Part shown: positions 33,001 through 36,000 of the stretch, in pieces
Layout of the letters: every line of letters begins with the position of its first letter
Position numbering within the stretch: position 1 is the stretch's first letter
Assembly: GCF_057098645.1 (NCBI RefSeq)
Contig: NZ_CM169472.1
DNA length: 64,000 nt
Strand: one strand, 5' to 3'
Position numbers: made by a program

Positions 33001-36000
33001 GTCGTTCCGTTGGCTGGTCTTTATCCGAGGTTCTGGCCTGGAAGGATAGCTGCAAGGCAGTTCATTAATCACGCTGGCGGCACGCAGCCGCCACACATCA
33101 ATCATCTGAACACAGAGCTATAACCATGAAGATTGAATATACGCCAGAACGTAGGCGGGGATTCGTTCGCCCTGGTGAAACTGAAAAACAACAAAATTGG
33201 GGTTTTTCAGGCATAACAAAAAGCGCCCAGTTACCTGAGCGCCTTTGTGAACGATTAACCTGCTGCACAAAAAATAAATATGAGCATTGGAATTATATCA
33301 ACTGTGTGAAGAAGCGCCACAATTGCCGGATTACAGGCAAAAAAAATGCGACCTATGATGGTCGCAAAAATATGATATACATGTTGATTACACTATGCAT
33401 CGACAACGATGCCACATTTTTGGCTGGTTGGCAAATCTGTCATCAGGGCGGACAACAACGCCACGATCTCATCTTTCTTGGGCAATTTTTAAGAAAATCC
33501 TCAAGGGCAAATCTTTTTGGCCTTGCTTCCTGTTCATGGTCAGGCATTTCATCCATTTCTCTTAATTTTTTTTCTACCTGTCTTTCAAGTATGGATAATG
33601 CGATTTCCCGTAATTCTTCGTTGTTCATTGTCTACTCCTGTAAAGAAATGCGCCGTAGTTCCTCACACCACGGCGCTGATAGTGATTATTCTGATTCTTT
33701 GGCCTTCCGGCGCTGTTCATATTTTAATTTGCGTCCACAGGCATCTAAGACCCATGCGGAAAAATTAGCACTAGGATTAGTTAATTTTTCTTGTTCAACG
33801 CTGGCATCAATCCCATCTATAAGCTCATGTGGGAATCGAATATTTTTCTTTGCTGATTTGTTGTTTTTGTTACCGCTAGACATTGATGCACCTCACTTAA
33901 ATGGACTTTATGGGCGCACACAATACAGTAAAAAAAATGAGATGTTAAGTATTGACATGTGCGCACACATGATTTTAATCTGTGCGCACAGTTTGAGTTT
34001 TGTTACTCAAATTAAGCAACGCCCCGCAGTGCTCGCAACACATGCAGGGCGTCTAACCACCAACGATAGCAACAGTATCGAGGCAGCTATGAGAAATCAT
34101 ACCACACACCCGCAAGGGCGGGACTCGCACAACCTGAATAAATACATCTGGCGTTTTATCGCCCTGAGCACGGCACAACCGCGCGTGATTACCATTGAGG
34201 CCACCAGCGAACAGGAAGCACGCCAGCAATCTCCGGCTGGCTGCGTGATGGTATTCGCTGCCCGTATTCGTCAGGAGGTGTGCCATGTGCAATAACATCC
34301 GTCCGGACGCAGCCGCCGAAGCCATCATAACGCTAATGCACGCGCTGATTGATATTTCTGTTATCGCAGACATGGCGCATAAGCACGCCACCAGTGAAAC
34401 AGAATATGCCGGGGCTTTCGTTCCTCATTCGCTGGCGGTTATGCAACTTAGTGCGGATATGGCGCTGAATGAGGCCAAAGCCATCCTGATTGCTGATTGT
34501 GAAAATGGGGGGGGGTTATGCGTGATGATCGTTTTAATTCCCTGAAACAGGAATTTTCCGGCGTTCCTGATGATGCGGCTGATGCGCTTTCGTCAATATC
34601 TGAAATTATGCGGGTGGCTTTTTTCTTTCTTTGCACTGATGAGCACAGGGATACAGGGCTAAATATTCTTGATATTGCCGCTAACTATGCTGATTTCGTG
34701 ACAGAAGTTGTTTTAAGAAAAACGACGGACGGGGATTAATATGCGTGATATTTACCTTGAAACAATAGACCGCGCATTTCTTGCACTTTCTCACAGTGAA
34801 AACATGCTGGAAATATTGCGCATATGGCTTGACACGCTTGGAGATAATGAACGCGACAAACAAAAATCAAGAATTGCCACGGCATTAATAACGCTACTTG
34901 AGCCTGTAATAATGGAACTGCAAAAAATAGATCTATTGCACGACAGATATAAAGAACAGCACACCGGAGAATAAAAATAATGAAACTTAAATATTCTGGC
35001 TTAACTGCCAGTGGCAACACTCACCCTAAATTTACGCGCGGTGATATTTACCGCGACCAGTACGGCGGCACGGTAATGATTAAGGGCGTGGCGGGACGGT
35101 GCGTAACTTACCGCCGTGAAGGTTACGAATATGATTGCGTGATGCCTGTTTATCAGTTCCGGCGTGATTTTTCTCTGGTACAGACCGCGCCGCATAACGT
35201 GCCCACCAGCAACGCCAGGGCACGGGCAAACATCCAGAAGCTGAAAACCATGATTAACGGATTCAGGGGCAAGAAATGAAAAGCGCACCGAACTTAAAAA
35301 AACAGCCTTACGACAAGATGACCGAAGTCATTATTTTTGCGGGTAGTGATGCCTGGGCACATGCGAAACAGTGGCAGGAACAGGACGGGCGACTGGCTGG
35401 CGATAATGTGCCTCCCGTTGTGCTGGCTGATGATCAACTGGATGAACTGGCAGACCTGATAATCATCGACGAGGGGCGCTATTGTGTCCGGCTGTACAAG
35501 GCAGGCCACATCAGGCCATCAAATATTAATGCCATTGCGCACAAGCTGGCGGCGGCGGGTGTAACTGATGCGAATTATTACCCCGAAGGGATGCACAGCC
35601 ATATGCGGGAGAACTGGCGCGAATACCTGGAACGGGTGCGCGGGAAAGAGCCGGCGGAAGAAAAAAACCACCAGCGAAAAACCACGCTACCGATGAGCGT
35701 TGGATCTACCGGATACGACACGCAACTGGATTACGTGGTTAAGGGGATTATTCCGGCGGTATCGCTATGCAGCATATACGGGGCTAGCGGGTCCTATAAA
35801 TCATTCCTTGCCGGATCGTGGGCGTGCCATGTTGCCACTGGTCGCCAGTGGGGAGGCCGCAGGGTTGCACATGGTGCGGTTCTCTATGTGGTTGGTGAAG
35901 GCGGTATAGGTGTTCCGCGTCGTGTAAAAGCCTGGGAGGTTGTGCACGATGAGCAGGTGAAAAATCTGTATCTGGTAAACCGCCCCATCTTTCCGGCTGC

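What the first reader, a model, noticed from the sequence alone, without database searches (positions are those of the whole stretch)
33443..34000. Candidate genetic switch: RHH regulator facing three TGTGCGCACA palindromes and a TTGACA promoter
Three copies of a 10-bp perfect or near-perfect palindrome sit between a leftward RHH-type gene and the rightward replication operon. One copy abuts a TTGACA -35 element. This resembles a repressor-operator switch (Stl-like master repressor) of the kind that keeps satellites silent until a helper phage induces them.
Basis: partly seen in the sequence, partly recalled or inferred. Interest (0 to 1): 0.5.

Follow-up and report, generated by a model that had tools for sequence, protein, structure and literature searches.

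The report
Ribbon-helix-helix repressor switch in a phage satellite
A tiny DNA-binding protein of a previously uncharacterised family (YlcI/YnfO) very probably sits on three matching palindromes to keep the main promoter of an E. coli phage satellite shut, which would supply the repressor that Gram-negative satellites of this type were thought to lack.

Summary
Three copies of TGTGCGCACA lie at 33911-33920 (one mismatch), 33958-33967 and 33981-33990. They sit between a leftward 65-aa gene (33686-33883) and a rightward operon (icd-like gene, small ORFs, RepA-type helicase, SSB, then capsid, portal and terminase). The element is a capsid-forming PICI satellite.

The 65-aa protein belongs to the YlcI/YnfO (DUF3950) family. 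Modelled as a dimer, it folds as a ribbon-helix-helix (RHH).

The middle palindrome abuts the TTGACA -35 element. The right one starts at the last base of the -10 element. The left, imperfect one sits the same way on the leftward promoter.

About 30 related islands from E. coli to Xenorhabdus and Gilliamella keep this geometry but carry different repeats. Repeat type follows the RHH variant only. Islands with 100% identical AlpA and Icd-like proteins have different RHH proteins and different repeats.

"Repressor-operator switch" is therefore well supported by comparison, but no binding was tested. "Stl-like" holds only as an analogy. The protein is unrelated to Stl, and published induction of these islands runs through AlpA.

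The promoter also lies inside a long conserved open frame, as P4 PLE lies inside eta. This suggests induction by read-through from alpA.

It is a new member of a known kind; interest is moderate.

The parts
33686..33883 (-). 65-aa YlcI/YnfO-family (DUF3950) ribbon-helix-helix protein, the proposed repressor. A GAGG Shine-Dalgarno sequence lies 6 nt upstream of the ATG.
33911..33920 (.). O1, imperfect palindrome TGGGCGCACA. It overlaps the last base of the -10 element and the start region of the leftward promoter, and is the proposed autoregulatory site.
   Evidence: A perfect TGTGCGCACA sits at the same position in Rahnella L009 and L010.
33920..33925 (-). Leftward promoter P_L, -10 element TATTGT (read on the minus strand). 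Its last T is the first base of O1.
   Evidence: Promoter scan, minus strand 33948->33920, 9 of 12 matches. A TAnnnT hexamer abutting O1 is conserved in relatives.
33943..33948 (-). P_L -35 element TTAACA, 17-bp spacer.
33952..33957 (+). Rightward promoter P_R, -35 element TTGACA. It lies back to back with the P_L -35 element, 3 bp apart.
   Evidence: Sequence. TTGAC(A/G) is found at this position in 26 of the 28 loci tabulated; the exceptions are TTGATT in L019 and CTGAAG in L018.
33958..33967 (.). O2, perfect palindrome TGTGCGCACA. It fills the first 10 bp of the P_R spacer.
   Evidence: Conserved while the flanking spacer diverges.
33976..33981 (+). P_R -10 element TAATCT, 18-bp spacer. This is inferred; the consensus scan did not call it.
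   Evidence: A TAnnnT hexamer at 17-18 bp from TTGACR is seen in nearly all related loci. Read from the sequences printed.
33981..33990 (.). O3, perfect palindrome TGTGCGCACA (12 bp as CTGTGCGCACAG, 33980-33991). It covers the last base of the -10 element and the predicted start site of P_R.
   Evidence: The 23-bp O2-O3 spacing recurs in L009, L010, L011 and L027.
34019..34080 (+). Conserved structured leader of the rightward transcript: hairpin 1 (34019-34052), single-stranded CTAACCACCAAC (34053-34064), and hairpin 2 (34064-34080) ending at the Shine-Dalgarno GAGG.
   Evidence: RNAalifold on 18 loci: 15 pairs, 9 of them with compensatory changes. No Rfam family at E <= 1.
34089..34295 (+). 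Icd-like (host cell-division inhibitor-like) gene, first gene of the repressed operon.
   Evidence: NCBIfam NF033153: 69.8 bits against a cut-off of 25. 100% identical in L005, which has different operators.
33126..34295 (+). Long open frame of 389 codons from its first ATG (408 stop to stop, starting right after the alpA stop codon and in the alpA frame). It runs antisense through both leftward genes, then through the operators and leader, and ends as the Icd-like protein. It is analogous to P4 eta/kil.
   Evidence: An open frame that runs from within or upstream of ylcI through the intergenic region was counted by eye in about 23 of the 29 loci, while the other two frames close within 5-44 codons in most loci. 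P4 precedent as described in PMC10111431.
33650..33676 (-). GC-rich hairpin between the RHH gene and the next leftward ORF. It resembles a terminator but has a poor U tract.
   Evidence: The segment 33640-33715 is conserved at 87-96% identity in the listed E. coli genomes that carry other RHH types (hits H52-H60).
33443..33628 (-). 61-aa ORF downstream of the RHH gene, with an AGGAG ribosome-binding site. It is an accessory gene, not an obligatory partner.
   Evidence: Homologous ORFs with the FAxLExFLK motif are found only in the E. coli islands and are absent from the other genera. No Pfam, NCBIfam or PHROG match. 100% identical between L005 and L006, which have different operators.
33347..33366 (-). 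Intrinsic terminator that ends the leftward transcript.
   Evidence: 7-bp stem followed by T8.
32880..33068 (+). alpA, the published activator of Gram-negative PICI induction. It lies upstream of, and in the same direction as, the repressed operon, and converges on the RHH operon.
   Evidence: Pfam PF05930, E 5.4e-17. Literature: PMC6092414.

Best explanation
The 65-aa YlcI/YnfO-family protein is a ribbon-helix-helix dimer that binds the three TGTGCGCACA palindromes.

Proposed working of the switch:
- O2 lies in the spacer directly after the TTGACA -35 element. O3 lies over the last base of the -10 element and the start site. Together they occlude the rightward promoter P_R. This silences the Icd-like gene, the replication genes and, further downstream, the capsid and packaging genes of this capsid-forming PICI.
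- The weaker site O1 occupies the same position on the protein's own leftward promoter and gives negative autoregulation.
- The module is exchangeable. Related islands carry other RHH variants with matching operators, so co-resident islands need not cross-repress.

How firm each step is:
- Shown by sequence comparison: the sites, their geometry, their exclusive co-variation with the RHH variant, and the fold.
- Inferred: that the protein binds the sites and represses P_R.
- More speculative: how repression is overcome. Here I propose transcription from the alpA promoter upstream, which is the published helper-dependent step. It would converge on the repressor operon and read through P_R. It would be protected by translation of the long open frame that spans the region, as in P4 eta/PLE. 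A helper protein that inactivates the repressor would then not be needed.
For: Sites and clustering:
- Three copies within 80 bp, in 0 of 1500 simulations.
- No other sites in the 64-kb window.

Family and fold:
- NF041551 and PF13132, both above their cut-offs.

Geometry conserved across about 30 loci from at least 12 genera:
- The layout is TTGACR | operator | 17-18 bp spacer | TAnnnT | operator, plus an operator on the -10 element of the leftward promoter.
- Rahnella L009 and L010 keep three perfect TGTGCGCACA copies at the identical 47/23 spacing, while the spacers have diverged.

Natural swap test:
- Window against L005: AlpA 100% and Icd-like 100% identical, RHH 34% identical, operators different.
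- Window against L002: AlpA 29% identical, RHH 97% identical, operators the same.
- L003 against L005: AlpA 29% identical, RHH 98% identical, operators the same.
- L005 against L006: small ORF 100% identical, RHH 25% identical, operators different.

Specificity residues recur independently with the same operator class:
- KKN-IRFP goes with TGTGCGCACA in Escherichia, Rahnella and Xenorhabdus.
- KKH-IRFP goes with GTGGGTnCACAC in Pantoea and Xenorhabdus.
- TTKG-IRFP goes with GTGTWTRTGCAC in Serratia, Brenneria, Pectobacterium, Xenorhabdus and Arsenophonus.

Other support:
- In the L006-type islands an unrelated Arc-like RHH ORF occupies the same slot, with its own palindromes ATGGTAATTACCAT.
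- One genome (NZ_CP037945.1) carries two islands of different operator type.

For the read-through step:
- The conserved long open frame.
- The P4 eta/kil/PLE description in PMC10111431.
- AlpA is sufficient for induction of EcCICFT073 (PMC6092414).
- Pseudomonas AlpA acts as an antiterminator (PMC7969949 and PMC9371919).
Against: - No binding, footprint, reporter or transcript data exist for this protein, or for any YlcI/YnfO member that I could find.
- The gene and its upstream region are adjacent and so are co-inherited. Part of the co-variation could therefore be linkage. The argument rests on operators being conserved while spacers diverge, and on recurrence of the same residue-operator pairs in distant genera.
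- The residue-operator code is not one to one. L011 (KKG) shares the window's operator, and L024 (KKN) has a variant operator, TGTAYACACA.
- The P_R -10 element is weak and its 18-bp spacer is suboptimal, so the consensus scan did not call it.
- K-12 YnfO sits next to a lambda-type cos region, and I saw no such operators on reading that sequence. The family is therefore not always used this way.
- The read-through model of induction is inference by analogy. The open frame lies in the antisense frame that shares wobble positions with ylcI, which by itself lowers the frequency of stop codons.
Confidence: 0.72

Rival explanations
1. Same repressor and operators, but the switch works. The RHH protein is the master repressor, and a helper-phage protein binds it as an anti-repressor, as happens with SaPI Stl. 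That event is what induces the island.
For: - The layout, a divergent repressor facing the replication operon, mimics Gram-positive PICIs (PMC6092414).
- RHH repressors can be titrated by partner proteins; this rests on general knowledge of antitoxins and was not tested here.
- The rapid diversification of RHH specificities could reflect an arms race.
- The helper signal that switches on alpA is still unidentified.
Against: - Over-expression of AlpA alone induces replication of EcCICFT073 without any helper, and alpA mutants of EcCICFT073 and EcCIEDL933 are not induced. An anti-repressor is therefore not required in those islands.
- What varies between RHH variants is the DNA-reading strand, together with the operators. 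No separate sensor surface or domain is visible in a 65-aa protein.
- There is no homology or shared fold with Stl.
Confidence: 0.15
2. The palindromes are bound by something other than the RHH protein: AlpA, the Icd-like protein (PHROGs labels its families 'transcriptional repressor'), the 61-aa ORF product, or a host regulator that recognises GTG...CAC sites.
For: - The PHROG families matching the Icd-like protein carry the label 'transcriptional repressor'.
- AlpA is a DNA-binding regulator of these islands.
- The repeats loosely resemble LacI/GalR-type GTG-N-CAC operators. This comparison is from memory and was not tested.
Against: - The window and L005 have 100% identical AlpA and Icd-like proteins but different repeats.
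- L005 and L006 have a 100% identical small ORF but different repeats.
- The window and L002 have only 29% identical AlpA but the same repeats.
- The small ORF is absent outside E. coli, while the repeats persist.
- A host factor cannot explain different repeats in islands of the same species, or even of the same genome.
Confidence: 0.04
3. The leftward pair (RHH plus 61-aa ORF) is a type II toxin-antitoxin-like or purely self-regulating cassette. The palindromes then serve only its own autoregulation, and their overlap with the rightward promoter is incidental.
For: - The best structural neighbours of the monomer model are RHH antitoxins (TacA, CopA, ParD, VapB).
- The arrangement is a small two-gene operon with a palindromic operator.
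Against: - The downstream ORF is missing in most genera, and it is exchanged independently of the RHH gene.
- It matches no family in Pfam, NCBIfam or PHROGs. PADLOC was not searched.
- The two perfect sites sit on P_R and only the imperfect one on P_L, and this geometry relative to TTGACR/TAnnnT is conserved in every type.
Confidence: 0.05
4. The repeats are a chance cluster, or a structural feature such as a hairpin or terminator, with no protein partner.
For: - The middle copy was scored as a terminator-like hairpin, CATGTGCGCACACATG followed by ATTTTAAT.
- The total count in the window equals the chance expectation.
Against: - The clustering was seen in 0 of 1500 simulations.
- Identical sites at identical spacing occur in Rahnella although the flanks have diverged.
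- In other islands the repeats are systematically replaced by different ones at the same promoter positions.
Confidence: 0.02

Closest known systems
Phage P22 immI region (Arc and Mnt ribbon-helix-helix repressors at the divergent Pant/Pmnt promoters)
   Same: - Small RHH repressors bind short symmetric operators placed over the -10/+1 regions of two back-to-back promoters.
- One protein represses an early or toxic rightward operon and its own gene.
- In the L006-type islands the slot is filled by an Arc-like sequence.
- The P22 details themselves are from established knowledge, not from a tool.
   Different: - There is no detectable sequence homology. The window protein belongs to DUF3950/YlcI-YnfO, and a PDB sequence search gave nothing significant.
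- There are three separate 10-bp palindromes, probably one dimer each, rather than one 21-bp operator bound by a tetramer.
- The controlled operon starts with an Icd-like gene and replication genes, not ant.
- The host element is a satellite.
Satellite phage P4 immunity region (vis - eta/kil - PLE - CI RNA)
   Same: - An alpA/vis homologue lies upstream.
- A promoter for the replication operon lies inside a long ORF that is translated only from upstream transcripts.
- The C-terminal, in-frame part of that ORF is a small cell-killing or division-inhibiting protein (Kil there, Icd-like here).
- Translation of the long ORF is said to prevent termination (PMC10111431; window frame analysis).
- L006-type relatives even carry the isrK and C4 (CI-like) RNAs.
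   Different: - In P4 the promoter is described as constitutive and immunity is an RNA (CI) that causes early termination.
- The window has no C4 or isrK RNA. Instead it has a protein repressor gene embedded antisense in the long frame, with operators on the promoter.
SaPI Stl / Gram-positive PICI Rpr master repressors
   Same: In function and position: a repressor gene divergent from the excision/replication operon of a phage-inducible island, keeping it quiescent (PMC6092414).
   Different: - Size and fold class are unrelated: this is a 65-aa RHH.
- It is not co-oriented with int.
- De-repression by a helper protein has not been shown.
- Gram-negative PICIs are induced through AlpA.
YlcI (DLP12) and YnfO (Qin) of E. 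coli K-12, DUF3950
   Same: - Same protein family: NF041551, 59 bits.
- Same conserved NIRFP...NFSAWV core.
   Different: - K-12 ynfO lies beside a lambda-type cos region and is followed by ydfO. I saw no TTGACR-operator arrangement on reading that sequence.
- I found no functional study of either protein.

Membership tests
YlcI/YnfO family (NCBIfam NF041551; Pfam DUF3950 PF13132) | Score above the curated cut-off of the family models | tested here: met
   NF041551: 59 bits against a cut-off of 30, E 3.5e-16, covering residues 9-56. PF13132: 30.1 bits against a cut-off of 25. 120 listed homologues all but two carry PF13132.
Ribbon-helix-helix (MetJ/Arc/CopG) superfamily | Strand-helix-helix protomer in which the N-terminal strands of two protomers pair into an antiparallel ribbon | tested here: met
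Ribbon-helix-helix (MetJ/Arc/CopG) superfamily | Sequence-specific binding to short repeated, often palindromic, operators through the ribbon | tested here: inconclusive
   There is no binding assay. The indirect evidence is that residues 12-14, at the start of the strand, co-vary with operator sequence across genera, and that only the RHH gene tracks operator type in the natural swaps.
SaPI Stl / PICI Rpr master repressors | Homologous repressor protein (larger than this one, with a separate region that binds the helper-phage inducer protein) | tested here: not met
   The protein is 65 aa and a single RHH domain with no further domain.
SaPI Stl / PICI Rpr master repressors | Repressor gene transcribed leftward together with int, divergent from the xis/replication operon | tested here: not met
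   The gene is divergent from the replication operon. However, int (31265-32515) and alpA (32880-33068) are on the opposite strand to the RHH gene and converge on it.
SaPI Stl / PICI Rpr master repressors | De-repression by direct binding of a helper-phage protein | not testable with these tools
   The literature for Gram-negative PICIs points to AlpA instead.
Capsid-forming PICI (cf-PICI) satellites (context of the switch) | int, alpA and a replication module, plus its own capsid, protease, portal, connectors, HNH, TerS and TerL, with no tail or lysis genes, in about 10-18 kb | tested here: met
   Present: int, AlpA, AAA_25 helicase and DUF4222; SSB, PerC, Phage_capsid, Peptidase_S78, Phage_portal, HNH, Terminase_4 and TerL. 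The E110019 relative is annotated with the same set. Criteria taken from bioRxiv 2025.02.11.637232. Absence of tail and lysis genes was judged only from the ORF list between 31.2 and 45 kb.
P4-type immunity (eta/kil, PLE, CI RNA) | CI / C4-family antisense RNA and its seqA/isrK-like target in the leader | tested here: not met
   No C4 or isrK hit in 31000-38200 at E <= 1. Both are present in the L006-type relative.
P4-type immunity (eta/kil, PLE, CI RNA) | Early promoter embedded in a long ORF that starts next to the vis/alpA homologue and ends as a small killing or division-inhibitor protein | tested here: met
   The open frame 33069-34295 is in the alpA frame and ends as the Icd-like protein. 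The frame is conserved in about 23 of 29 loci. P4 description from PMC10111431. This is structural analogy only; translation was not shown.

The most novel reading that the evidence does not exclude
Gram-negative PICIs and cf-PICIs do have a master repressor after all. It would be an exchangeable YlcI/YnfO-type RHH 'immunity cassette' whose gene is embedded antisense inside a translated, P4-eta-like read-through frame.

The switch would be flipped by AlpA-dependent transcription from upstream, not by destroying or titrating the repressor. That transcription would collide with the repressor operon, read through the occupied promoter, and be kept alive by translation of the long frame.

The many operator/RHH specificities would define heteroimmune groups. 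These would let several related satellites share one cell and would set which islands cross-silence each other.
Probability: 0.3. Interest if true: 0.65.

Novelty: new member of a known kind. Interest (0 to 1): 0.5.

Why it matters
[quoted passage not shown] A cognate repressor-operator cassette on the promoter of the replication operon would fill that gap.
- **Spread of the arrangement.** The query spanning the ylcI gene, the operator region and the leader matched 1791 of 5426 complete E. coli genomes. Many of those matches cover only part of it. The same arrangement occurs in at least a dozen other genera.
- **A function for an uncharacterised family.** It would give DUF3950/YlcI-YnfO a first function.
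- **Co-resident islands.** It would explain how several related islands can coexist in one genome.
- **A practical parts list.** It offers small, mutually orthogonal repressor/operator pairs.
- **Testability.** The prediction can be tested directly with simple reporter and gel-shift experiments.
- **Limit.** The mechanism itself, an RHH repressor on palindromic operators at divergent promoters, is textbook.

Tried and rejected
- **Rfam scan of 31000-38200 at E <= 1.** Nothing relevant; the only hit was a chance match on a terminator. The conserved leader is therefore not a known RNA family.
- **C4 RNA as regulator of the leader.** I tested whether the C4 RNA of L006 is complementary to the conserved leader motif. 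It is not.
- **PDB sequence search with the family profile.** Only insignificant hits; the best was 'Protein delta', E 0.45.
- **Toxin-antitoxin reading of the leftward gene pair.** Rejected because the downstream ORF is restricted to E. coli and is swapped independently of the RHH gene.
- **AlpA, the Icd-like protein or the small ORF as the operator-binding protein.** Rejected by the natural swap table.
- **More copies of the motif in the island.** A search at up to 2 mismatches found fewer than chance (25 against 37.7 expected) and none at regulatory positions.
- **Locating EcCICFT073.** I fetched 50 kb of CFT073, but the stretch held the lambdoid prophage at icd, not the PICI. I did not pursue it, so no direct link to the experimentally studied islands (EcCICFT073, EcCIEDL933) was established. 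The L006-type module turned out to be common in O26, O111 and O103 strains.
- **K-12 ynfO context.** It lies next to a cos region, and I saw no comparable operators on reading the sequence.
- **The long plus-strand ORF as a real folded protein.** Substitution patterns favour ylcI as the selected frame, and the translated sequence looks like antisense junk. Only the openness of the frame, not its sequence, seems to be maintained.
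Full report
**Context**

The window is E. coli chromosome; potA, pepT and roxA lie at 27.2-31.0 kb. It carries a mobile island made up of:
- a tyrosine integrase (31265-32515, +) and AlpA (32880-33068, +);
- two small leftward ORFs (33443-33628 and 33686-33883);
- a rightward operon with an Icd-like gene (34089-34295), several small ORFs, a DUF4222 protein, an AAA_25/RepA-type helicase (35276-36676), SSB and a PerC-like protein;
- an HK97-type capsid, prohead protease, portal, HNH, TerS and TerL.

This gene set is the one used to define capsid-forming PICIs, or cf-PICIs (bioRxiv 2025.02.11.637232). A near-identical regulatory region sits in such an island in E. coli E110019.

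**The observation**

- TTGACA (33952-33957) directly abuts the middle copy.
- The raw count in 64 kb is what chance gives: 3 against 2.7 expected at up to 1 mismatch.
- The clustering is not chance. Three within 80 bp occurred in 0 of 1500 Markov simulations, with an analytic expectation of about 2.5e-5.
- No further sites appear at up to 2 mismatches.

**The protein**

- The 65-aa ORF is a YlcI/YnfO (DUF3950) family member, above the curated cut-offs of both NCBIfam and Pfam. No paper in the library describes a function for this family.
- RHH proteins form their DNA-reading ribbon only as dimers. I therefore modelled two copies joined by a Gly-Ser linker, with a matching alignment.
- In that model each copy forms strand 10-18, helix 19-32 and helix 41-64, with pTM 0.67 and core pLDDT 81-90.

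**Promoter anatomy**

- *Rightward promoter.* TTGACA is followed by O2 in the spacer. The hexamer 18 bp downstream is TAATCT (33976-33981), and its last T is the first base of O3. The consensus scan did not call this promoter because the -10 element is weak. In the related loci, however, a TAnnnT hexamer lies 17-18 bp after TTGAC(A/G) in nearly every case, always running into the second operator (sequences).
- *Leftward promoter.* On the other strand the scan finds TTAACA-17 bp-TATTGT (33948->33920). The last T of that -10 element is the first base of O1. Relatives again keep TAnnnT there.
- *Summary.* Each promoter has an operator across its -10/+1 region. The rightward one has a second, perfect operator in its spacer, and the imperfect copy is on the repressor's own promoter. 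This is the classical layout for tight repression of one promoter and milder autoregulation of the other.

**Comparative test**

I collected relatives from two sources:
- E. coli genomes: distant BLAST matched 1791 of 5426 genomes, many of them over only part of the query.
- A scan of one genome per species with the family alignment: 24 loci from Serratia, Rahnella, Pectobacterium, Klebsiella, Xenorhabdus, Pantoea, Brenneria, Proteus, Arsenophonus, Gilliamella and others.

All but one distant locus (L030) show the same geometry, but the repeats differ:

| Operator | Loci |
|---|---|
| TGTGCGCACA | window, L002, Rahnella L009/L010, Xenorhabdus L027 |
| GTGTTnAACAC | L003, L005 |
| inverted GTGTGTTTCATG | L004 |
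| GTGTWTRTGCAC | Serratia, Brenneria, Pectobacterium, Xenorhabdus, Arsenophonus |
| GTGGGTnCACAC | Pantoea L014, Xenorhabdus L028 |
| GTGTACCCCCAC | Klebsiella L012 |
| TGTTTAMACA | L013, L019 |
| ATGGTAATTACCAT | L006 |

Three lines of evidence tie the repeats to the RHH protein.

1. *Footprint.* Rahnella keeps three perfect TGTGCGCACA copies at exactly the 47/23-bp spacing of the window, although the sequence between them has diverged.
2. *Natural swaps within E. coli*:

| Pair | AlpA identity | RHH identity | Icd-like identity | Small ORF identity | Operators |
|---|---|---|---|---|---|
| window vs L005 | 100% | 34% | 100% | 32% | different |
| window vs L002 | 29% | 97% | 85% | 29% | same |
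| L003 vs L005 | 29% | 98% | 94% | 56% | same |
| L005 vs L006 | 21% | 25% | 46% | 100% | different |

   Only the RHH gene tracks the operator.
3. *Specificity residues.* The residues that start the RHH strand co-vary with operator class, and the same pairs recur in distant genera: KKN-IRFP, KKH-IRFP and TTKG-IRFP, with R16 invariant like the outer GTG/CAC.

In L006-type islands the slot is filled by an unannotated 57-aa ORF with a typical Arc-like sequence and its own palindromes. What is conserved is therefore the function of the slot, not one protein lineage.

One genome (NZ_CP037945.1) carries two islands of different type. This fits the idea that the types behave like heteroimmune groups.

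Caveats:
- The gene and its operators are adjacent, so linkage contributes to the correlation.
- The residue code has exceptions (L011, L024).
- Nothing has been tested biochemically.

**What it is not**

- It is not a toxin-antitoxin pair. The 61-aa ORF downstream of the RHH gene is found only in E. coli islands and is exchanged independently.
- It is not an AlpA, Icd-like or host-factor site.
- It is not a member of the Stl/Rpr family.

**How the switch may be thrown**

Published work says that Gram-negative PICIs and cf-PICIs need AlpA. It also says that AlpA over-expression alone induces EcCICFT073 replication, and that helper phages switch on alpA (PMC6092414; bioRxiv 2022.09.08.507074). 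The same paper says a global repressor in these elements is 'unclear'.

The sequence offers a way to reconcile a repressor with AlpA sufficiency:
- alpA lies upstream of P_R on the same strand, and the RHH operon converges on it.
- From the alpA stop codon onward, in the alpA frame, the plus strand stays open for 408 codons. It runs antisense through both leftward genes, through the AT-rich promoter/operator region and the leader, and ends as the Icd-like protein.
- An open frame spanning the intergenic region is present in about 23 of 29 loci of many operator types, while the other two frames close after 5-44 codons in most loci.
- Substitution patterns show that ylcI, not this frame, is under protein-level selection. 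What seems to be maintained is only the absence of stop codons.

This is the arrangement described for satellite P4 (PMC10111431). [quoted passage not shown] Translation of eta from the upstream late promoter prevents termination.

Pseudomonas AlpA is a processive antiterminator (PMC7969949 and PMC9371919).

I therefore propose, as inference, that AlpA-dependent transcription from upstream both interferes with the convergent repressor operon and reads through the repressed promoter.

**Comparison with known systems**

- In mechanism the closest analogue is the P22 immI Arc/Mnt switch.
- In genomic logic the closest is the P4 vis-eta/kil-PLE region, with a protein repressor in place of the CI RNA. 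The L006-type relatives have both a protein repressor and the isrK/C4 RNAs.
- Membership in YlcI/YnfO and in the RHH fold class is supported. Membership in Stl/Rpr is not.

**Verdict**

- The feature is real and is more than chance.
- The 'genetic switch' reading is well supported by comparative genomics, and the 'Stl-like' label is analogy only.
- The molecular mechanism is ordinary. The interest lies in three things: a function for DUF3950, a candidate for the missing repressor of Gram-negative PICIs, and the nested P4-like architecture.

Noticed in passing
window 33069-34295 (+); also L001-L029: A 408-codon open frame, stop to stop, starts right after the alpA stop codon and in the same frame. 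It runs antisense through both leftward genes and through the promoter/operator region, and ends as the Icd-like protein. A comparable open frame is kept in about 23 of 29 related loci. PGAP annotates parts of it as over-long 'Icd-like' CDSs. It resembles P4 eta/kil.
   Followed up: partly
window 34019-34080 (+): The 5' leader upstream of the Icd-like gene is conserved. It has two hairpins, with 9 of 15 pairs showing compensatory changes across 18 loci, separated by an almost invariant single-stranded CTAACCACAAC. The second hairpin ends at, or encloses, the Shine-Dalgarno sequence. There is no Rfam match, and it is not complementary to the C4 RNA of L006. Its function is unknown.
   Followed up: partly
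window 27255-31046 against 46018-47559: The island's left flank is potA-pepT-roxA, but its right flank is an SMR-family gene that corresponds to mdtJ and a trypsin-like peptidase gene that corresponds to ydgD. In E110019 that right flank belongs to an island inserted in tqsA, and in CFSAN027346 an island with identical alpA and icd sits next to roxA. This looks like recombination between two resident related islands (a chromosomal inversion) or an assembly chimera.
   Followed up: no
L006 2543-2716 (-), 2976-3161 (+): In the island type common in O26, O111 and O103 strains, the repressor slot holds an unannotated 57-aa Arc-like RHH ORF with ATGGTAATTACCAT operators. The leader there carries isrK and C4 (P1 c4 / P4 CI-like) RNAs under an 'ash family' pseudo-CDS. 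That type therefore combines protein and RNA immunity.
   Followed up: partly
window 33640-33715: The 3' end of the RHH gene plus the following GC-rich hairpin (33650-33676, minus strand) is conserved at 87-96% identity in the listed E. coli genomes whose RHH genes are otherwise different. It looks like a recombination boundary for swapping the immunity cassette.
   Followed up: no
window 33992-34011: The inverted repeat TTTGAGT-N6-ACTCAAA lies just after the predicted P_R start. It would form a hairpin at the 5' end of the transcript. It is only partly kept in L002 and not in other genera.
   Followed up: no
window 37427-37819 (+): A PerC-family gene lies inside the island's early operon (PF06069, E 5e-43). 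A PerC-like protein of another E. coli PICI was reported to repress LEE virulence genes (PMC11773190).
   Followed up: no
L013 6042-6108, L025 5206-5275: The Rfam 'int-alpA RNA' (RF02996) is present between int and alpA in the Xenorhabdus and Arsenophonus relatives. It was not detected in the window at E <= 1.
   Followed up: no
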